Below, piece by piece: positions 1 to 30,168 of a stretch of 30,168 nt of DNA. The stretch comes from a virus (lineage: Duplodnaviria > Heunggongvirae > Uroviricota > Caudoviricetes). The notes below the pieces were generated by a model. That model made no database searches. It saw only the letters and a program-made list of their open reading frames with translations, and was not told the origin of the DNA. The stretch lies in the IMG/VR virus record IMGVR_UViG_2778261166_000009, positions 1 through 30,168 of that record; one strand, given 5' to 3'. Numbering within the stretch: the stretch's first letter is position 1; every line of letters begins with the position of its first letter. Both the position numbers and the translations under genes were made by a program.

Positions 1-296
1 CTATTTATCGGAAGGTTTATCTTGCTGCGGTTTGTTGTTGACCATATCGCACAACATAGAGAGCAGCATTAACCGTACTTTAAAGGGAGAATGACTAAAC
101 ACGCGCATACACCTCTTGAACTCATTCATAAGACCTCCTGACTTGCTAATCCCGTCGATCCTTGAGGGATGATTGCATTACATACAGATATAGCACAGGC
201 TATATTATAAAGCATCAACTATCTACGAAAAACAATAACTTACATTGTTATCAATAAGTTACGTTAGTTAATATCTGTGAGTATTCGGCAGTATTT

Positions 297-1337
297 CTAA
301 GCTGTCGCGACATTTTTGCGACATTTTAAGGGGTTAAGTCGCACGGCATCTTCAAGGTGGCTTGGGGCGAAATGGGCATAACGCATTGTCATAGTGATGT
401 CAGCGTGGCCGAGAATTTTTTGCAGAACCAGAATGTTCCCGCCGTTCATCATAAAGTGGCTGGCAAATGTATGGCGCAGTACATGGGTAAGCTGGCCGGA
501 GGGGAGTTCAATGCCTGCGCGTTCCAAAGCAGAGCGGAACGCGTTATAGCAGGGTTTGGGGAACAGAGCGCCTTTCGTTTCAGGCAATTCGGATAGAAGT
601 TCATCATCAAGGGGGATTGTTCTGTTGCGCTTCCCTTTGGTTTTGACGAACGTAACTTTATCGCCTGCGATCTGAGAGCTTTTCAGCGTTGCCGCTTCAT
701 TCCATCTTGCGCCGGTCGCAAGACAGATTTTTACGACTAGCTCCAAGTATTTTACTTTGCTTCGTTTGCATTCCAGCAAAAGCAGCTCAATTTCTTCAGC
801 AGTGAGGAAAGCCATTTCGGTTTCATCAGTACGATACTGTCTGACGTTTTCCAGTGGGTTGGGGGCTGACCATTCCCCGATTCGTTTCAGCTCGTTGAAC
901 ATAGCCAGGAAGTAAGCATGTTCAAGGTTCATTGTTTTCGGGGAAACCTTGGATACTCTGCTAGTGCGGGCATAATGCCCATCAAGCCTTTTTGCGCGGT
1001 AGGCCGTGAACAGCTGGGCATTAAACTCTGTAGCTAGCGGGAATCCCATGCACTCTGCCGCCCAGGTCATAGCGTCTTTGCGCTTTTGACCATTGCGCAA
1101 AGCTACTCCGTGGCGTTCATACCACATTGTGATCAGGTCTATTAAAGTTCGTTTGTCCTTCCCTTCACCCAGCCAGGGCGCACTGTCTACTTTCTGAAGC
1201 GTATGGTTCTCAAATGCCAGGGCTTCCCCCTTCGTGGCAAATTTTTTACGTATGCGCTTCCCGTTCTTACCATTACTACGGTTGACGGTGTAGAAGTCGG
1301 CGATCCATTCGCCTGTCGGAAGTTTACGAACACTCAT
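297..1337 (-). CDS. int: Tyrosine recombinase / phage integrase
   Basis: C-terminal catalytic region with HxxR...Y-type motifs (LRHTFASH..., MTMRYAHF); sits at the prophage edge downstream of the repressor. ATG at 1337 preferred over the TTG at 1346. Confidence 0.85.
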   Translation of the reverse strand: MSVRKLPTGEWIADFYTVNRSNGKNGKRIRKKFATKGEALAFENHTLQKVDSAPWLGEGKDKRTLIDLITMWYERHGVALRNGQKRKDAMTWAAECMGFPLATEFNAQLFTAYRAKRLDGHYARTSRVSKVSPKTMNLEHAYFLAMFNELKRIGEWSAPNPLENVRQYRTDETEMAFLTAEEIELLLLECKRSKVKYLELVVKICLATGARWNEAATLKSSQIAGDKVTFVKTKGKRNRTIPLDDELLSELPETKGALFPKPCYNAFRSALERAGIELPSGQLTHVLRHTFASHFMMNGGNILVLQKILGHADITMTMRYAHFAPSHLEDAVRLNPLKCRKNVATA

Positions 1338-1338
1338 T

Positions 1339-1917
1339 TCATTCAATCGTCAGAACAATGCGGCCGATGATTTTTATATCGTCAATACCGCAGTCAAAAG
1401 CCATACCTACGCCGCTTACTCTAACTTTTCCCACAGGGATGCGTGTTAGTGTTCTAACGCTGGTTTTACCTTCAACTTCGACAAGCCAAACATCGTCATA
1501 AACTTCAGTAAAGTGTTGATCAACAATGTATTGCATTGTGTTATCAATCACACAGATAGGATTCTGCGGTAAAGGTTTGCCAGGTAAAAAAGTAACCTTA
1601 TCGAGCATTAGGAAACCAGACTCATAGAGTTTTCCGTCCACAATCTTCTTGCGTGGCAATTTCATGATGTCTAATTCGTCATCGTTAAACTTTCTACCTT
1701 GTCCAGTCGCAAGCCATTCCAGAGTAGCTCCTGTTTCAGCCATACATCTAACAACGATATCAGCTGGAAAAAAATCCCTCTTATACCGGTTAGCCAGACT
1801 GCTGCTTGCTATATCAAGATGTTCGGCTAGGGCTAGTTTTGTGTTGAATCCATACGCTTGGATAACTCTATCTAGTACCTCAGCTCCGCCATGAGAAAAC
1901 TCAATTTGTAGATTCAC
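1339..1917 (-). CDS. cI: CI-type immunity repressor (phage 186 CI-like, 192 aa)
   Basis: Size and position match 186 CI; N-terminal HTH-like segment; GTG start at 1917; its stop abuts the int start (cI-int operon as in 186). Confidence 0.65.
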   Translation of the reverse strand: MNLQIEFSHGGAEVLDRVIQAYGFNTKLALAEHLDIASSSLANRYKRDFFPADIVVRCMAETGATLEWLATGQGRKFNDDELDIMKLPRKKIVDGKLYESGFLMLDKVTFLPGKPLPQNPICVIDNTMQYIVDQHFTEVYDDVWLVEVEGKTSVRTLTRIPVGKVRVSGVGMAFDCGIDDIKIIGRIVLTIE

Positions 1918-1941
1918 GAAAGTTTTACCTTGAAATCTTGC

Positions 1942-1963
1942 GCGGAGTGAGTTTAAACTCCGC
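1942..1963. promoter_or_regulatory. Dyad symmetry element in the divergent cI/apl switch region (candidate operator)
   Basis: GCGGAGT-N8-ACTCCGC with a palindromic centre GAGTTTAAACTC, lying between the cI start (1917) and the apl start (2037). Confidence 0.4.
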
Positions 1964-2036
1964 TTTGTAGGTTTAAGTGAATATTGACAGTTACAGCCCT
2001 GTATTGCCGTACAGGTTAACTTATGGAGTTTGCCTC

Positions 2037-5986: not shown

Positions 5987-8004
5987 CGCTGGCAATAAAC
6001 GAACAATGCTATGCCGTTGATGCCTGGAGGCGGGAAACATTCGCGCCAGGCACTCCGGCAGACGCGACAATCACAGAACGCCGCCTGTGGGCTGTAAACC
6101 CGCAGGATTATGAATGGCGATCCCGGTACCTGCATGAGATACCCGACTGGTTAGCCGGGTATTTTGGCCGTCGTTACGAAAAGCTTTTTTCTGGCCGTGA
6201 CGGGCGTCGCCGTGCCAATACATTCCTGCGCAAAACAATCGGTGAGAATGTATTGCCACGTCTGCGCAAAGTGGCTGCGCGTTACTCGCTGGCCGCTGAT
6301 GCTGCTGATCTTCCTTTTGGTAAGTCGCTGGAGCGCTTGCCGTCACTAGACCGTCCTGATCTTAAAAAACTGGCTGGCCAGATATCTGGCTGGATTTCCC
6401 AGTCACTTTATGACTTCACCGAACAGTTTGATTCCGGCGCTGACGACGCCAGAGAGCTGCATCGCCGCACCCTGGAATCATACCGCCATCTTTGTGCCTG
6501 TTGCCTGATGCTGAATAACCAGCCGCCGTACTGGGCTGAACATGAGGCCAATGAAGGTCAACTGGAAATGCGTAAGGCGGAATCCGGGATACTGCGCATG
6601 ATGGCGCCGGAATGGTGGTACCTGCGTTTTAAACGTGCTCGTGATACGCAGCGCGAGCACATGGCCATTACGGTGGGACAGGTGCAAAAAGCGGCCAGCG
6701 CTTATGTATCTCGCAAAACACTGGGCGAATGGATAGACCAGAAAAAGCGGAATCTGGAGTTCTTTAAAAAGTTTGATCTGCTGAATGATGAGGGGCTGCG
6801 CATTGCACTGGACAGCATGGTGCACCGCAGCGTTGCAAATCCGGCGATCCGTCGATGTGAACTAATGGTAAGAATGCGAGGGTTCGAAGATATGGCCAAT
6901 GAAGAAGGGCTGGCCGGTGAGTTTTACACTATCACCGCGCCATCACGTTTCCATGCGGTTCACAGCAAAGGGGGCTTTGTATCGCAATGGGATGGAAGTA
7001 CACCGCAGGATACCCAGCGCTATTTATGCGGCGTATGGGCAAAAGCACGCGCAGCGATCTCGCGTGCGGGTATTCATGTATTTGGGTTTCGGGTTGTTGA
7101 GCCTCACCATGACGGGACACCGCACTGGCATATGTTGCTTTTTATGCGTCCGCAGGACGTGGACACGGTGCGCGATATTCTTTGCTATCACGCCAGAATT
7201 ACCGATTCTGAAGAACTGCAATCTGAAAAGGCGCTGAAGGCACGTTTTCATGTTGAAGCTATCGATCCCGCCAAAGGTTCGGCCACGGGCTACATCGCGA
7301 AATACATTTCAAAAAATATTGATGGTTTTGCGCTTGATGGTGAGCAGGACGAAGAAACCGGCGAAAACCTGCGTGATATGGCTAAGTCCGTTTCCGCGTG
7401 GGCTTCACGCTGGCGTATTCGCCAGTTTCAGCAGATTGGTGGTGCGCCGGTAACCGTCTGGCGTGAGCTGCGTCGGTTGCGGGATCAGGTACTGACAGAT
7501 CGCAGAATGGATGCGGTTCTGGCCGCTGCTGATGTCGGGGACTGGGCTGCATATACCCAGGCGCAGGGAGGGGCACTGGTTGCCCGCCGTGATCTGGTTG
7601 TTCGTCTGGCCTATGAAATTACGGAACAGGGCAACGAATACGCGGAGGACGTGCAGCGCGTACAGGGTGTTTATTCTCCTTTGGTTCCTGATTCAGAAGT
7701 TTGCACCCGTCTGGTTAAGTGGCAAAAGGTTGCGAAGTTGGCCGAAGCGCCAGCGGAGGCGGGTTTTTCTGGCGGCAACGCCGCCCCTTGGAGTTCTGTC
7801 AATAACTGTACGGAAGGGGGAACCCGCAGACGGTTAAAACTGGAATTATGCAGTCGGGGTTTTGATGGTTCTGATGAAGAAATAGCGATTCTCCTGCGGG
7901 GTAGTGGTTTGAGATTTGGTCAGGGCGCTCTGATTTACCGCAACGGACGGCTTAAAGAGACTCAAAACGAGCCATTACAGGAGCTGTGGCCGGGGTGGTT
8001 ATAG
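5983..8004 (+). CDS. A: Rolling-circle replication initiator endonuclease (P2 gpA-like)
   Basis: HUH-type motif HWHMLLF and tyrosine pair GYIAKYISK; ATGA overlap with the dam stop; position matches P2/186 gene A. Confidence 0.8.
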   Translation: MTLAINEQCYAVDAWRRETFAPGTPADATITERRLWAVNPQDYEWRSRYLHEIPDWLAGYFGRRYEKLFSGRDGRRRANTFLRKTIGENVLPRLRKVAARYSLAADAADLPFGKSLERLPSLDRPDLKKLAGQISGWISQSLYDFTEQFDSGADDARELHRRTLESYRHLCACCLMLNNQPPYWAEHEANEGQLEMRKAESGILRMMAPEWWYLRFKRARDTQREHMAITVGQVQKAASAYVSRKTLGEWIDQKKRNLEFFKKFDLLNDEGLRIALDSMVHRSVANPAIRRCELMVRMRGFEDMANEEGLAGEFYTITAPSRFHAVHSKGGFVSQWDGSTPQDTQRYLCGVWAKARAAISRAGIHVFGFRVVEPHHDGTPHWHMLLFMRPQDVDTVRDILCYHARITDSEELQSEKALKARFHVEAIDPAKGSATGYIAKYISKNIDGFALDGEQDEETGENLRDMAKSVSAWASRWRIRQFQQIGGAPVTVWRELRRLRDQVLTDRRMDAVLAAADVGDWAAYTQAQGGALVARRDLVVRLAYEITEQGNEYAEDVQRVQGVYSPLVPDSEVCTRLVKWQKVAKLAEAPAEAGFSGGNAAPWSSVNNCTEGGTRRRLKLELCSRGFDGSDEEIAILLRGSGLRFGQGALIYRNGRLKETQNEPLQELWPGWL

Positions 8005-11619: not shown

Positions 11620-12420
11620 ATGTCGCATTTAAAAACTGACTGGCTGTGTGTTGCCACAGAAGGCGATACGGTTGATGGCAGGGTCATGGAACGGCAATGG
11701 ATTATTGACATGGGGGAAACCTATGATGTCACCAATTATGCCGCACTAATCTGGCCTGAACATGAACGATATGCCGGTAATTTTGGCGAAGTGCTAAAGG
11801 CGATGTGGCAGGACGGGGAAGATGGGCTGGCACGATTATATGTGAGCCTGTGTCCTAACAAGCGCCTGTTGTATGCCAATGATGAAGGGCAATTGCTTTA
11901 TTTCTCTGTTGAGCCAGAACTTAACTGGCGCGGAGGTGAGCGAACGTATCTGGGCGGACTGGCCGTAACGGACAATCCCGCCAGTGTGGGCACTACACGG
12001 TTGCGCTTTAGTCGGCGCAGACTATCAAAACAGGGATATTACAGTTGCGTAATTTCCCGTGACGGAAAAATTAAGCAGGAAGAACTGATGAAAAAAACCT
12101 GGCACCATTTATTTGGCATTAAGCCAAAGTTTGAAAGCGAAGGTCAGCAGGATGATACGCAGCAGGGTGATGATAAATTGCAGGCGCTTGCGAATGCTGT
12201 TAACGATCTGGAAGCGCGAGTGGGGGCAATTGAAACACAACTGAGCACTGTTCAGGAAGATGTGGATACTATTGTTGAAGTTGTGGACACGGAAGAGTTT
12301 GCGGCCATTCGTGATAATGCGAAAGAAATCGTAACCCGTTTTAACGATCTGGATAATAAGAATACCCGCTCACCGGGGCGTAAAATTTCAGAAAAAGCCG
12401 GGAAATATAATTTTCTGTAA
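11620..12420 (+). CDS. O: Capsid scaffolding protein (P2 gpO-like)
   Basis: Motifs EGDTVDGRV and YLGGLAVTDNPAS resemble those I recall from P2 gpO; correct position. Confidence 0.8.
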   Translation: MSHLKTDWLCVATEGDTVDGRVMERQWIIDMGETYDVTNYAALIWPEHERYAGNFGEVLKAMWQDGEDGLARLYVSLCPNKRLLYANDEGQLLYFSVEPELNWRGGERTYLGGLAVTDNPASVGTTRLRFSRRRLSKQGYYSCVISRDGKIKQEELMKKTWHHLFGIKPKFESEGQQDDTQQGDDKLQALANAVNDLEARVGAIETQLSTVQEDVDTIVEVVDTEEFAAIRDNAKEIVTRFNDLDNKNTRSPGRKISEKAGKYNFL

Positions 12421-12483
12421 TTCGCTTTAACGCTGATTAGCCCAGAATAAATTTTATATATCGCTTAATTGCGAGGGAGTTTT

Positions 12484-13506
12484 ATGCACCTTAATAATCG
12501 TGCGCGGGATTTACTGGATAAATATTCGGCGGGGATGGCGCAGCATTTTGGCGCACGTGATACCAGTCGTTATTTTTCCCTGAATGACCCGCAGGAAAAT
12601 GCGCTGCGTCTTGCGTTGCTGGAGTCCGTCGAGTTCCTGAACATGATCACCTGTCTGGATGTTGACCAGCTGAGTGGTCAGGTGATTTCTGTCGGTTCTT
12701 CCGTGCTGCATACCGGCCGCAGTGAGAATGGCCGTTTTATTCGTCGTGTGGGTGTTGACGGTAATGACTATTCGCTGGTTGAGACAGACAGCTGCGCCGC
12801 GTTGCGCTGGGATCTGCTTTCGGTTTGGGCAAATGCGGGTAAGGATGAAAACGAGTTTTTCAATCTTGTCCAGGCATTCACCACACAGGCTTTTGCACTG
12901 GATATGCTGCGTATTGGTTTTAATGGTAAAAGCCGCGCAAAAACCACTGACCCGGAAGCCAACCCGAACGGCGAGGATGTGAACGTTGGCTGGCATGAGC
13001 GTATGAAAACGCTGCTGGGCGGCAATCAGATTATGACCGATCCCGTGGTGCTCGATGAGGCCGGGGATTACAAGTCACTGGATGCAATGGCGTCCGATCT
13101 GATTAACGCCAAAATCCCGGCGCAGTTCCGCAATGACCCGCGTCTGGTTGTCCTTGTCGGTGCCGATCTGGTCGCTGCTGAACAGTACCGACTGTATCAG
13201 GCAGCTGACCGTCCGACTGAAAAAATTGCTGCGCAGATGCTGGGGAGCACCATTGCTGGCCGTCAGGCCATTATCCCGCCGTTTATGCCGGGTAAACGCA
13301 TGGTGGTTACGCCGCTTTCTAACCTGCACATCTACACCCAGCGCAATACCCGTATGCGTAAGGCGGAGTTTGTTGAAGATCGTAAGCAGTTCGAAAACAA
13401 ATACCTGCGGAATGAAGGTTACGCGGTGGAAGTGCCGGAGCTGTATGCGGCCATTGATGAATCCGCAGTGACGATCGGCAAAGTCTCCGAACCGGTGGAG
13501 GGCTGA
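12484..13506 (+). CDS. N: Major capsid protein (P2 gpN-like)
   Basis: About 340 aa following the scaffold gene; ATG at 12484 preceded by GAGGGAG (the track start at 12469 is a TTG). Confidence 0.8.
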   Translation: MHLNNRARDLLDKYSAGMAQHFGARDTSRYFSLNDPQENALRLALLESVEFLNMITCLDVDQLSGQVISVGSSVLHTGRSENGRFIRRVGVDGNDYSLVETDSCAALRWDLLSVWANAGKDENEFFNLVQAFTTQAFALDMLRIGFNGKSRAKTTDPEANPNGEDVNVGWHERMKTLLGGNQIMTDPVVLDEAGDYKSLDAMASDLINAKIPAQFRNDPRLVVLVGADLVAAEQYRLYQAADRPTEKIAAQMLGSTIAGRQAIIPPFMPGKRMVVTPLSNLHIYTQRNTRMRKAEFVEDRKQFENKYLRNEGYAVEVPELYAAIDESAVTIGKVSEPVEG

Positions 13507-18183: not shown

Positions 18184-18521
18184 TGAGCAGCGGGCAGTGG
18201 CTGGTTGTGGTGGCGCTGGCGTTTGTCTGGGGCTGGCTGACCGCTGACTGGCGGCGTGACAGCTTAGAGCTGGCAATCAATACAGCGGCGCAGGTGGCCG
18301 GTAATGAATCGCGAAAAGCAATGCAGGGTATTGCCAGTGATTCGGCCAGAGCGCTGGAAGATAAACTGGAGGCGTTAAAAAATGTGGCACCGCGAGAGAT
18401 ACGCACGGAAATACTTAAGCCCGTTTTTACCAATCGTTGTCTGTCTGATGAGTTTGTCAGCATGTACAACAGCGCCGCAGCCGGTACCGAACGTGCGTTA
18501 TCAGGAAAACCTGAAAACTAA
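18183..18521 (+). CDS. Rz-like i-spanin
   Basis: N-terminal transmembrane segment (WLVVVALAFVWGWL) followed by a helical periplasmic domain; start overlaps the endolysin stop. Confidence 0.6.
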   Translation: MSSGQWLVVVALAFVWGWLTADWRRDSLELAINTAAQVAGNESRKAMQGIASDSARALEDKLEALKNVAPREIRTEILKPVFTNRCLSDEFVSMYNSAAAGTERALSGKPEN

Positions 18522-28397: not shown

Positions 28398-28730
28398 ATG
28401 AAAAATTTCATTATATTAGCTGTAGGAGCAGCAGTTTCATTCAATGTGTTTGCGGCTGAGGTTGTTTATGTGCCAACAGATACGAAGGCTAGTTACACGA
28501 TTTTAGATAAGACTCGCGACGGCAGCATGGCTACTATAACAACCGAAAGAAAGGGGCCGTCTGGAACATCATATTCAAAGCGGCTGTACGACTGTACTGC
28601 CGGGACAGTTAAATATCTTGGAGACGGTGAGACCATCGAGCAGATGAATAACTCGGCACCAGATCCAAATATGGCCCCTATAGTTGACCGCTCAATTGCA
28701 TACTACATTGGACAAAAAGCCTGTCAGTAA
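28398..28730 (+). CDS. Small secreted/periplasmic protein (cargo gene), two Cys
   Basis: Signal peptide MKNFIILAVGAAVSFNVFAAE; lower GC than the tail genes; own terminator downstream. Confidence 0.55.
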   Translation: MKNFIILAVGAAVSFNVFAAEVVYVPTDTKASYTILDKTRDGSMATITTERKGPSGTSYSKRLYDCTAGTVKYLGDGETIEQMNNSAPDPNMAPIVDRSIAYYIGQKACQ

Positions 28731-28771
28731 CTACGTTCTTATATCGGTTGATATGAATTGAACACACCTTA

Positions 28772-28795
28772 ACCCGCATTGTGCGGGTTTTTTTG
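28772..28795 (+). terminator. Rho-independent terminator
   Basis: ACCCGCA-TTG-TGCGGGT hairpin followed by a run of seven T. Confidence 0.65.
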
Positions 28796-29243
28796 TACCC
28801 ACCACCAGACCGCACAGAACGCTCTCAGCAGGCGGGACAACACTAGGGTAACCACTGCGACACCGCAATAAGATCAAATTCACAGCGACGCTCTGAGGTA
28901 GCCACATGCAGACAAAATAAATCTTTCGCAGACAAAAACGGCACTACACCGCACCCGCCTGCGGTTTCTGGATCGATAAATTTTTTCAGTTTTATTTTTC
29001 TACAAACCAGACTGTCATCTCGCGCCAGCACTGGTGGCTTTGCGGAAAACCCAAACTGAAAAGATTGAAAAGAATTTCAGTGTTTATCAGTTTTTCGTGG
29101 GGATAAGGTTGTTGTGAGTATTCTATCTTTATGATTTATATATATTATTTTTATTTTCTTTGATGTTATATCGAAGTCGTGTTTCAGCCTGATTTATTGA
29201 ACTGATTGATTTTATGGCAATTTACCATATAGATGGCTTGGAT

Positions 29244-29257
29244 TTTATTGCAATAAA
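29244..29257. promoter_or_regulatory. 14-bp perfect palindrome upstream of the DprA-like gene (candidate operator)
   Basis: TTTATTGCAATAAA, about 50 bp upstream of the ATG at 29308, in an extremely AT-rich intergenic tract. Confidence 0.3.
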
Positions 29258-29307
29258 TCATAAAATAGATCATTCAAAAATCAATCATTCTTTATGCTAG
29301 GTATCTT

Positions 29308-30168
29308 ATGGATAGCAAGTTGAATCTTGATGAGGCAGGTAGAATCGCTTGGCAGCATGCAGCACTTGTTTTGAGCAAGAAAATTGGTATCGGTTCTAAA
29401 AAATTTAATGAAGACCTGAAGGTTTTAATTAATCAATTTGGGAATATTGAAAACATTTATCAATATCACTTTGGCATGGTTCCAATCGATCCTGATTTGA
29501 TTCGCGTACTCGATAAAAAATTTTCCAACCTAAATTTTAAGTTTGAAGTATTACAATTTAATGATGAACTATATCCCAACGCATTGAGACAAATTTATGG
29601 GATTCCCCCAATCTATTATTATAGAGGCGATGTCAGTTTGTTGGGGATTGAGGATAGTATCTCTTTTGTTGGGACGCGAAATCTTGATGAAAAAGCGTAT
29701 ATTGAACATGGTGTTGATGTTATAAAAAGATTATTTTCTGCGGGCTATAAGGTCATCGTAAGTGGATTGGCTAAAGGTTCGGATACCCTCGGACATAAAA
29801 CAGCAATAGAATTAGGGGGGCGAACCATTGCTGTATTAGGAACACCTCTTGATGTATCTTATCCAGCGGAAAATAAAGTGTTGCAAAATCAAATAGCAAC
29901 TGAGCATTTAGTAATTACTGAATATCCTATCGGGATTGGTAGTTTTGGAACATACTTCGCAAATAGAAACCTCACTACCGTAAGTTTATCGCACAAAGGA
30001 ATAGTAGTTGCACGTGCTGGTGATAAAAGCGGTACTCAATATGCGATCAAAACTTGTATTGAGCAAGGTAAGCCGGTTTACGTTTTGGAAAATAATATCT
30101 ATGAGCCTGATTTTAAATGGGTAGAAAAATATAAAGATAAAATAAAAGTAATTAGAATGACAAAATAA
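29308..30168 (+). CDS. dprA: Short-form DprA/Smf DNA-processing protein (SAM-like N-domain plus Rossmann-fold domain)
   Basis: Rossmann core VSGLAKGSDTLGHKTAIELGGRTIAVLGTPLDVSYPAENK matches the DprA signature SGxAxGxD...GGxTIAVLG...D..YP.EN; N-terminal GIGSKKF...FGNIENIY resembles the DprA SAM-like domain; stop codon is the last three bases of the window. Confidence 0.8.
   Translation: MDSKLNLDEAGRIAWQHAALVLSKKIGIGSKKFNEDLKVLINQFGNIENIYQYHFGMVPIDPDLIRVLDKKFSNLNFKFEVLQFNDELYPNALRQIYGIPPIYYYRGDVSLLGIEDSISFVGTRNLDEKAYIEHGVDVIKRLFSAGYKVIVSGLAKGSDTLGHKTAIELGGRTIAVLGTPLDVSYPAENKVLQNQIATEHLVITEYPIGIGSFGTYFANRNLTTVSLSHKGIVVARAGDKSGTQYAIKTCIEQGKPVYVLENNIYEPDFKWVEKYKDKIKVIRMTK

What the first reader, a model, noticed from the sequence alone, without database searches (positions are those of the whole stretch)
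29040..30168. AT-rich island at the prophage edge carrying a complete short-form DprA
Base composition drops sharply (roughly one third GC by hand count, against about 50-55% in the phage core) across an intergenic tract with a perfect 14-bp palindrome (29244-29257), followed by a 286-aa protein with a full DprA Rossmann signature and a SAM-like N-domain. This domain architecture is the short DprA form I associate with low-GC Firmicutes and epsilonproteobacteria, whereas the enterobacterial Smf form is longer. An extra, horizontally acquired DprA-like gene next to a prophage end could act in ssDNA handling, recombination or as a defence/anti-defence component. The gene ends at the window edge, so any partner genes downstream are unseen.
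Basis: partly seen in the sequence, partly recalled or inferred. Interest (0 to 1): 0.6.

Follow-up and report, generated by a model that had tools for sequence, protein, structure and literature searches.

The report
Prophage-borne ShosTA-like toxin-antitoxin defence cassette
The "extra DprA" is the antitoxin-like first gene of a divergent ShosTA-type anti-phage toxin-antitoxin pair, carried as swappable AT-rich cargo near the right end of a P2-family prophage; this is a known kind of system and a familiar kind of location.

Summary
From window position 29091, GC falls to 0.34, against 0.51 for the rest of the window. The 14-bp palindrome and the complete 286-aa DprA-fold ORF (29308-30168) are real.

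The gene is not the host smf, which is present in all 5426 E. coli genomes searched and is only 28% identical. It matches the PADLOC ShosA model (2e-52). Twelve bp past the window edge lies a 437-aa HAD + phosphoribosyltransferase protein that matches ShosT. In 22 of 22 genomes carrying a full-length relative, such a gene follows directly on the same strand.

The pair, plus an unrelated DUF6680 gene, lies inside an ESSI-2-like P2-family prophage at mntS/mntR, between a probable cos site and attR. Sister prophages carry other genes in this slot.

It resembles the characterised E. coli APEC O1 ShosTA, which sits in the cos-adjacent hotspot of a P2-like prophage, but it is a distant subtype:
- ShosA is 30% identical.
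- ShosT is barely alignable.
- The HAD catalytic motifs are intact here.
- ShosA lacks the C-terminal tail tied to antitoxin instability.

Function is inferred, not tested. I rate it a new member of a known kind, of modest interest.

The parts
29308..30168 (+). shosA-like gene (286 aa): DprA-fold protein with an N-terminal helical SAM-like domain and a Rossmann domain; predicted antitoxin and ssDNA-binding component
   Evidence: ORF. Pfam PF02481 1.8e-44. PADLOC ShosA PDLC03961 2e-52. Below the NCBIfam dprA equivalog cut-offs. AF2 pLDDT 92.5, with Foldseek matches to 3uqz and 8zva over the full length. ssDNA-binding arginines conserved: R124 and R220, plus K248.
29091..29307 (+). AT-rich leader and presumed promoter region of the cassette; the left boundary of the variable cargo is at 29090/29091
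   Evidence: GC 0.28. Homology to sister prophages ends at window 29090-29091. The consensus scan called no + strand sigma-70 site, so the promoter is inferred only.
29244..29257 (.). Perfect 14-bp palindrome TTTATTGCAATAAA, 51-64 bp upstream of the start codon; possibly an operator or promoter element, unproven
   Evidence: about 4% of shuffles. Not conserved in relatives.
28890..29090 (.). Conserved non-coding flank of this phage lineage (probable cos region) immediately left of the cargo slot
   Evidence: Matched in about 450 E. coli genomes with no annotated feature and in ESSI-2-like phages. No Rfam family.
28944..28958 (-). Probable cohesive-end (cos) sequence; its reverse complement is GCGGGTGCGGTGTAG
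   Evidence: Identical to the 15-nt sequence present at both ends of the linear record of Cronobacter phage ESSI-2. The joined ends align across this point. This is an inference, not a mapped end.
28338..28730 (+). Last conserved phage gene before the slot (phrog_13843, function unknown), followed by a terminator-like hairpin at 28771-28789
   Evidence: Annotated as a 110-aa hypothetical protein in RefSeq.
199..209 (.). attL core GCTATATTATA. The matching attR core lies outside the window, at window-extended 32592-32602 (L001 16293-16303).
   Evidence: The empty K-12 mntS-mntR site has one copy. Window and K-12 are identical to the left of it, and L001 and K-12 to the right.
307..325 (.). GCGACATT-TTT-GCGACATT repeat, also present 100 bp inside attR (L001 16175-16193); probably integrase arm-type sites
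   Evidence: I first mistook it for the att core.

Best explanation
The 286-aa ORF is the ShosA-like gene of a two-gene ShosTA-type cassette. Its partner starts 12 bp after the window ends (window-extended 30180-31493). [quoted passage not shown]

By analogy with the characterised E. coli APEC O1/KTE181 ShosTA, the PRTase protein would use PRPP to disturb nucleotide metabolism and DNA replication. The DprA-like protein would bind ssDNA and counteract that damage without binding the toxin, which makes it a type IV toxin-antitoxin system. Phage infection would tip the balance, through host shut-off or through phage ssDNA and replication intermediates, and the infected cell would stop growing or die before phage are released.

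Shown here: the fold, the domain architecture, the catalytic motifs, the strict gene pairing and order, and the location inside the prophage in a variable slot. Inferred: toxicity, antitoxicity, anti-phage activity and the trigger.

The cassette is AT-rich foreign cargo (GC 0.35) in the slot between the probable cos site and attR of an ESSI-2-like (Seongnamvirus-like) P2-family prophage at mntS/mntR. There it would protect the lysogen, and therefore the prophage, from competing phages.
For: - PADLOC: ShosA 2e-52 for the window protein and ShosT 4.7e-10 for the downstream protein. The same broad models also hit the validated APEC O1 proteins.
- Pairing: in 22 of 22 GTDB loci with a full-length relative, a full-length ShosT-like gene lies at most about 110 bp downstream on the same strand. 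Among 58 ordinary DprA loci there were only 2 weak partial hits.
- Gene order A then T and the protein sizes match APEC O1.
- AF2 models are confident: pLDDT 92.5 and 92.2.
- ShosA model: full-length match to 3uqz and 8zva.
- The PRPP-loop aspartates D379/D380 are invariant and align with D331/D332, whose mutation abolishes ShosT toxicity (PMC11961720).
- ShosA R124 and R220 align with R139 and R234, which are essential for ssDNA binding and antitoxicity.
- It is not the host smf.
- It lies inside attL-attR.
- The slot is variable in sister prophages.
- A second allele of the pair, 61% and 48% identical, sits in the same slot without DUF6680.
- An 80%-identical pair sits in a conjugative-element region of Dickeya.
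Against: - No experiment exists for this subtype. Both validated ShosTA systems found in the literature searched are of the APEC O1 type.
- ShosA is only 30% identical to the validated one. Each ShosA type is closer to S. pneumoniae DprA than the two are to each other.
- ShosT homology is weak: BLASTP is not significant; a profile of this family does not find the ShosT crystal sequences at E <= 1; hhalign gives 52% probability for the full length and 80% for the C-domain.
- The RecA-contact residues K200 and R206 of ShosA are A187 and Q193 here.
- The C-terminal helix and disordered tail linked to ShosA instability are absent.
Confidence: 0.78

Rival explanations
1. The pair is mainly a prophage-stabilising addiction module. 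It would be a toxin-antitoxin pair that penalises loss of the element, with no real anti-phage role.
For: It has the same TA architecture as in the best explanation. In strain PSS-07 a roughly 24-kb deletion removed the prophage structural genes but kept int, cI, the cos region and the cassette. The pair also occurs on a conjugative element in Dickeya.
Against: The validated relatives protect against T7, lambda and other phages (PMC9122126, PMC11961720). The slot holds other defence-like cargo in sister prophages, such as a PIN-domain protein and an AAA ATPase. The two roles are not mutually exclusive.
Confidence: 0.1
2. The DprA-fold protein does not act on DNA. Together with the HAD phosphatase-PRTase protein it would form a nucleotide-modifying or nucleotide-signalling module in which the Rossmann (SLOG/LOG-like) domain processes a nucleotide product. 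The mechanism would then differ from that of characterised ShosTA.
For: More distant fold matches are LOG and Moco-carrier nucleotide-binding proteins. The HAD catalytic motifs are fully canonical here (D7, D9, T11, S68, K97, D117, D121 invariant), whereas APEC O1 ShosT has substitutions at motifs I and IV. The ShosA RecA contacts are not conserved.
Against: The ssDNA-binding arginines of DprA and ShosA are invariant in this family. The closest solved relatives by far are DNA-binding DprA proteins.
Confidence: 0.08
3. It is a phage-encoded genuine DprA, a recombination mediator that loads RecA and serves phage or prophage recombination or host transformation. The downstream gene would be unrelated.
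For: The Pfam DprA match is strong, and the protein is 43% identical to S. pneumoniae DprA across the Rossmann domain.
Against: It scores below both NCBIfam DprA equivalog cut-offs: 122 vs 191 and 94 vs 495. It is strictly coupled to the HAD-PRTase gene in 22 of 22 loci. It sits in a cargo slot rather than the phage replication or recombination module. Only 4 of 5426 E. coli genomes carry this allele.
Confidence: 0.04

Closest known systems
ShosTA of E. coli APEC O1 / KTE181 (Rousset 2022 pFR105 'DprA + PRTase'; Millman 2022; Pu 2025, PDB 8ZVA-8ZVD; Yang 2026, PDB 9VZO, 9W2P, 9W2Q)
   Same: - Two co-oriented genes in the order A then T.
- ShosA is a SAM-like plus Rossmann DprA fold with the ssDNA-binding arginines.
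- ShosT is an N-terminal HAD-fold hydrolase plus a C-terminal PRTase with the DD PRPP-loop motif.
- Protein sizes are similar: 286 and 437 aa here, 327 and 424 aa there.
- Both are carried as cargo next to cos in a P2-family prophage.
   Different: - ShosA is 30% identical and 41 aa shorter. It lacks helix alpha14 and the disordered C-terminal tail, and K200 and R206 are A187 and Q193.
- ShosT is barely alignable (hhalign 52-80% probability).
- The HAD motifs are canonical here but substituted in APEC O1.
- The slot lies between cos and attR rather than between cos and the replication gene.
- This subtype is untested experimentally.
Canonical DprA/Smf (S. pneumoniae DprA 3UQZ; E. coli Smf)
   Same: Same Pfam family and fold. 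The two-domain SAM + Rossmann layout of S. pneumoniae DprA is the best solved match (1e-29).
   Different: Below the NCBIfam equivalog thresholds. It lacks the C-terminal domain of the 374-aa Smf and is 28% identical to Smf. It is not in the smf-def context. It is always paired with a HAD-PRTase gene.
PsyrTA / RqlHI
   Same: A DprA-like antitoxin paired with a PRTase-containing toxin. The window protein matches PsyrA weakly (66.8 bits).
   Different: The PsyrT model is 689 positions long, and the partner here matches only its last ~40 positions at E 0.064. The partner here has a HAD domain and matches ShosT, not PsyrT. From memory, PsyrT carries a helicase-type N-terminal region.
cos-adjacent defence hotspots of P2-like phages and P4 satellites (Rousset 2022, PMC9122126)
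   Same: A variable, AT-rich cargo slot next to a (probable) cos site in a P2-family prophage, holding different defence-like genes in different strains.
   Different: The phage lineage differs: ESSI-2-like, with a tail-module gene matching the Pfam family HP1_ORF34. The position also differs: after the tail genes, between cos and attP/attR. The classical P2 position between the replication gene and the portal gene is essentially empty here.

Membership tests
ShosTA (ShosA component) | DprA-fold protein with an N-terminal SAM-like helical domain and a C-terminal Rossmann domain | tested here: met
   AF2 pLDDT 92.5. There are four N-terminal helices followed by an alpha/beta domain. Foldseek aligns 307 columns with 8zva (TM 0.71) and 279 columns with 3uqz.
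ShosTA (ShosA component) | Match to ShosA profile models | tested here: met
   PADLOC broad model PDLC03961: 2e-52, 176 bits. Narrow APEC O1-type model PDLC02997: only 51.5 bits. The broad model gives 285 bits for APEC O1 ShosA.
ShosTA (ShosA component) | ssDNA-binding arginines (R139, R234; R261 dispensable) | tested here: met
   These align with R124, R220 and K248. R124 and R220 are invariant in 17 family members.
ShosTA (ShosA component) | RecA-contact residues K200 and R206 | tested here: not met
   These align with A187 and Q193. Q193 is invariant in this clade, and the K200 position is K in many relatives but A here. RecA binding itself was not tested.
ShosTA (ShosA component) | C-terminal helix alpha14 and a disordered tail that confer antitoxin instability | tested here: not met
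   The protein ends at residue 286, shortly after the Rossmann domain. The profile alignment to APEC O1 ShosA stops at 252/265, and no low-confidence tail appears in the model (PMC11961720, PMC12961424).
ShosTA (ShosT component) | Two-domain toxin: N-terminal HAD-fold hydrolase/pyrophosphatase plus C-terminal PRTase | tested here: met
ShosTA (ShosT component) | Sequence homology to characterised ShosT | tested here: inconclusive
   - PADLOC broad ShosT model: 4.7e-10, 38 bits.
- BLASTP: not significant.
- The family profile misses 8ZVB at E <= 1.
- hhalign: 52% for the full length, 80% for the C-domain.
- 8ZVB is absent from the top fold-search lists.
ShosTA (ShosT component) | PRPP-loop aspartates required for toxicity (D331/D332) | tested here: met
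   VIIIDDVVTSG aligns with ILVIDDFCTEG. D379, D380, T383, S384 and G385 are invariant in 19 members.
ShosTA (system) | Adjacent, co-oriented two-gene unit | tested here: met
   A 12-bp gap with a strong ribosome-binding site. Paired in 22 of 22 loci. Same order as APEC O1. Terminator-like hairpin after shosT.
ShosTA (system) | ShosT toxic, ShosA neutralises it, and the pair protects against phage | not testable with these tools
   Needs expression and plaque assays.
Canonical DprA/Smf | Score above the curated equivalog thresholds, and the conserved smf-def context | tested here: not met
   TIGR00732 scores 122 against a cut-off of 191. PRK10736 scores 94 against 495. Host smf is present in 5426 of 5426 genomes at its own locus.
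PsyrTA/RqlHI | Partner toxin matching the PsyrT model (689 positions; from memory, a helicase-type N-terminal region plus PRTase) | tested here: not met
   The partner is a 437-aa HAD + PRTase protein. It matches PsyrT at E 0.064, and only at the extreme C-terminus of the model.
Prophage cos-adjacent defence hotspot | Same flanks with different cargo across related prophages, next to cos | tested here: met
   Seven different gene contents were seen downstream of the conserved 28890-29090 flank. The cos assignment is inferred from the ESSI-2 termini.

The most novel reading that the evidence does not exclude
This clade may be a second, separately assembled type of ShosTA rather than a diverged copy of the characterised one. 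Five observations point that way:
- Its DprA-like protein branches nearer to genuine DprA than to characterised ShosA.
- Its HAD domain keeps a full catalytic motif set.
- Its ShosA lacks the instability tail and the RecA-contact residues.
- Its toxin is almost unalignable with ShosT.
- Fourteen of the 22 genomes with the pair are labelled as archaeal (mostly DPANN lineages), at 37-49% identity to the E. coli protein.

If so, sensing and neutralisation could work differently, and the repeated pairing of a DprA fold with a PRTase fold would be a convergent design. That would be reminiscent of the DprA-ComF(C) partnership in natural transformation, which I recall from memory and did not test beyond a weak Foldseek hit to ComF.
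Probability: 0.3. Interest if true: 0.5.

Novelty: new member of a known kind. Interest (0 to 1): 0.3.

Why it matters
It turns a puzzling "second DprA" in a non-competent enterobacterium into an identifiable anti-phage toxin-antitoxin cassette. It also shows that ESSI-2-like P2-family prophages have their own swappable cargo slot between cos and attR, comparable to the P2 and P4 hotspots.

The practical value is an untested, divergent ShosTA subtype with an intact HAD active site and no antitoxin tail. Comparing it with the characterised system could help settle two open questions raised in the literature: what ShosT actually does with PRPP, and how ShosA senses infection.

Tried and rejected
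- **att core.** I first took the 19-bp repeat GCGACATTTTTGCGACATT (window 307; L001 16175) for the att core. Comparison with the empty K-12 site showed the true core is GCTATATTATA. The 19-mer is probably a pair of arm-type integrase sites.
- **DUF6680 as a third component.** Rejected. It is absent from 22 of 22 related loci and from the second E. coli allele in the same slot, and a hairpin separates it from shosT.
- **Palindrome as a conserved operator.** No conservation in relatives.
- **Rfam on the whole window.** No hits.
- **Promoter scan.** No + strand site upstream of the gene.
- **Original shosTA paper (Kimelman 2012).** It is not held in the library, so I could not tell which clade the founding example belongs to.
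- **Rousset supplement.** The text held does not contain this subtype's sequences.
- **Archaeal context.** Neighbours of one homologue labelled Nanoarchaeota were uninformative orphan genes.

Full report
**Observation**

The window matches E. coli EC101 (NZ_CP196707.1) at 100% over the region queried. It runs from mntS through a P2-family prophage.

GC is 0.513 for positions 1-29090 and 0.336 for 29091-30168. No 1078-bp window elsewhere falls below 0.432. The palindrome TTTATTGCAATAAA at 29244-29257 is perfect. About 4% of shuffles of the AT-rich tract do as well, and it is not conserved upstream of related genes.

The ORF at 29308-30168 encodes 286 aa and stops on the last base of the window. 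It matches Pfam DNA_processg_A at 1.8e-44.

An AlphaFold model (pLDDT 92.5) has an N-terminal helical domain followed by a Rossmann domain. It aligns end to end with S. pneumoniae DprA and with ShosA.

**What the gene is**

It is not the host dprA/smf:
- It scores below both curated NCBIfam DprA thresholds.
- smf is present in 5426 of 5426 complete E. coli genomes at its usual place next to def.
- The two proteins are 28% identical.

Against the PADLOC defence library the best match is ShosA (2e-52).

**The partner gene**

The complete genome shows what the window cuts off. Twelve bp after the stop codon, behind a strong ribosome-binding site, a 437-aa gene begins.

- It matches the PADLOC ShosT model (4.7e-10).
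- It gives weak Pfam HAD and phosphoribosyltransferase hits.
- Its C-terminal domain matches PRTases.

A hairpin followed by a T-run comes after this gene. A DUF6680 gene follows, then attR and mntR.

**Is the pairing real?**

A scan of one genome per species found 22 loci with a full-length relative of the window protein (37-62% identity). All 22 have a full-length relative of the 437-aa gene no more than about 110 bp downstream on the same strand. Among 58 loci of ordinary DprA there were only two weak partial hits. DUF6680 was found in none.

A second E. coli allele of the pair (61% and 48% identity) sits in the same prophage slot without DUF6680. An 80%-identical pair lies in a conjugative-element region of Dickeya dadantii. 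The unit is thus a mobile two-gene cassette, and DUF6680 is separate cargo.

**Where it sits**

Comparison with the empty K-12 site gives the att core GCTATATTATA. attL is at window 199-209 and attR at window-extended 32592-32602, so the prophage is about 32.4 kb and the cassette is inside it.

The phage resembles Cronobacter phage ESSI-2 (Peduoviridae, Seongnamvirus). A tail-module gene in the sister prophage matches the Pfam family HP1_ORF34.

The ends of the linear ESSI-2 record carry the same 15 nt, GCGGGTGCGGTGTAG. This is the reverse complement of window 28944-28958, and the joined ends align across that point. I take this as the probable cos site; it is an inference.

The surrounding non-coding stretch, 28890-29090, is conserved in about 450 E. 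coli genomes. Homology to sister prophages ends at 29090/29091. Beyond that point, related prophages carry other genes:
- a serine acetyltransferase, with or without an AAA ATPase;
- a PIN-domain protein plus a hypothetical protein;
- a DUF6338 protein plus hypothetical proteins;
- other hypothetical proteins.

This allele of the cassette is in 4 of 5426 genomes. One of these is a deletion remnant that kept int, cI, the cos region and the cassette.

**Comparison with known systems**

ShosTA was noted as a toxin-antitoxin pair in 2012. It was shown to protect against T7 and lambda as the 'DprA + PRTase' system of the cos-adjacent hotspot of a P2-like prophage in E. coli APEC O1 (PMC9122126).

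Pu et al. (PMC11961720) reported the following:
- ShosT has a hydrolase/pyrophosphatase domain and a PRTase domain.
- It binds PRPP and perturbs purine metabolism.
- It causes DNA duplication, filamentation and death.
- D331A/D332A abolishes toxicity.
- ShosA is a SAM + Rossmann DprA-like ssDNA binder that does not bind ShosT.
- ShosA is unstable through its C-terminus, so T7 Gp0.7-driven host shut-off releases the toxin.

Yang et al. (PMC12961424) added three points. R139 and R234 are needed for ssDNA binding. Dimerisation is required. A RecA interaction through K200 and R206 is displaced by ssDNA.

The pair found here shares the following with that system:
- the architecture, the gene order and the protein sizes;
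- the ssDNA arginines, R124 and R220;
- the PRPP-loop aspartates, D379 and D380.

It is nevertheless a distant subtype:
- ShosA is 30% identical. Each ShosA type scores higher against S. pneumoniae DprA (107 and 83 bits) than the two score against each other (48 bits).
- The K200 and R206 positions are A187 and Q193.
- The C-terminal helix and tail are missing.
- The two ShosT families align only at the profile level, at 52% probability for the full length and 80% for the C-domain.
- A profile of this family does not retrieve the ShosT crystal sequences.
- The HAD motifs are canonical and invariant here (DxDxT, S68, K97, D117, D121). APEC O1 ShosT has serine for the nucleophile aspartate and arginine in motif IV.

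**Verdict**

The best explanation is a ShosTA-type toxin-antitoxin and abortive-infection cassette carried as prophage cargo (confidence about 0.78). The fold, motifs, pairing and location are shown. Toxicity, neutralisation, phage protection and the trigger are inferred from the characterised relatives.

The rivals rank lower: a pure addiction module, a nucleotide-processing mechanism rather than a DNA-binding one, or a genuine phage DprA.

I rate the finding a new member of a known kind, found in a cos-adjacent prophage slot analogous to the published P2 and P4 hotspots. Interest is modest. What remains open is whether this subtype works, and is triggered, in the same way as the characterised one.

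Noticed in passing
window 28890-29090 (core 28944-28958): A conserved non-coding stretch is found in about 450 E. coli genomes with no annotation. Its centre equals the 15-nt sequence repeated at both ends of the Cronobacter phage ESSI-2 record, so it is probably the cos site of this phage lineage.
   Followed up: partly
right of window 29091, in sister prophages (L003, L004, L005, L088, L091, L092, L093, L095): The slot between this flank and attR holds different cargo in each prophage examined: serine acetyltransferase with or without an AAA ATPase, a PIN-domain protein, a DUF6338 protein, several hypothetical proteins, and a second ShosTA allele. It looks like an undescribed hotspot of the ESSI-2-like lineage.
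   Followed up: partly
L001 15328-16053 (window-extended 31627-32352): A DUF6680 gene with an apparently hydrophobic N-terminal segment (judged by eye from the translation) lies between shosT and attR. It has no PADLOC or PHROG match, no paper in the library mentions the domain, and it is not linked to ShosTA elsewhere.
   Followed up: partly
L015-L028: Fourteen of the 22 genomes carrying the ShosA-ShosT-like pair are labelled as archaeal: Nano-, Woese- and Pacearchaeota, an unclassified archaeon, and 'Methanosarcinales' MAGs. Identity to the E. coli protein is 37-49%. The neighbours in one locus were uninformative, so the host assignment rests on record titles only.
   Followed up: partly
L002 (E. 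coli PSS-07): A prophage remnant has a deletion joining a truncated DUF3850 gene to window position 28846. This removes the methylase, the replication gene and all structural genes. It keeps int, cI, the early genes, the probable cos site and the ShosTA-DUF6680 cargo.
   Followed up: no
window 307-325 and L001 16175-16193: The tandem GCGACATT-TTT-GCGACATT motif is present on both arms of the attachment region, about 100 bp from the core on each side. These are probably integrase arm-type binding sites.
   Followed up: partly
L096 (Dickeya dadantii CP076386.1): An 80%-identical ShosA/ShosT pair lies among IS elements and type IV secretion/conjugation genes. The cassette therefore moves between different kinds of mobile element. 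Nucleotide homology to the window begins only at the start codon.
   Followed up: no
window 29308 vs 29320: RefSeq annotates the same gene with two different starts: 286 aa from ATG in PSS-07 and 282 aa from TTG in EC101. Conservation of the N-terminus (MDS.L.L) in relatives favours the ATG at 29308.
   Followed up: yes
window 6377-6390, 20863-20880, 25846-25861: Three other perfect palindromes of 14, 18 and 16 bp lie inside the phage body.
   Followed up: no
window 1501-2000, 12001-12500, 18501-19000, 24501-25000: Local GC dips to 0.41-0.42 occur within the prophage. They are milder than the cargo island.
   Followed up: no
AF2 model of the 437-aa protein (rank 15): There is a weak Foldseek match of the PRTase domain to H. 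pylori ComF. From memory, ComF(C) is a PRTase-fold competence protein that works with DprA, so a DprA/PRTase pairing may have an older parallel in transformation. This is a lead only.
   Followed up: no
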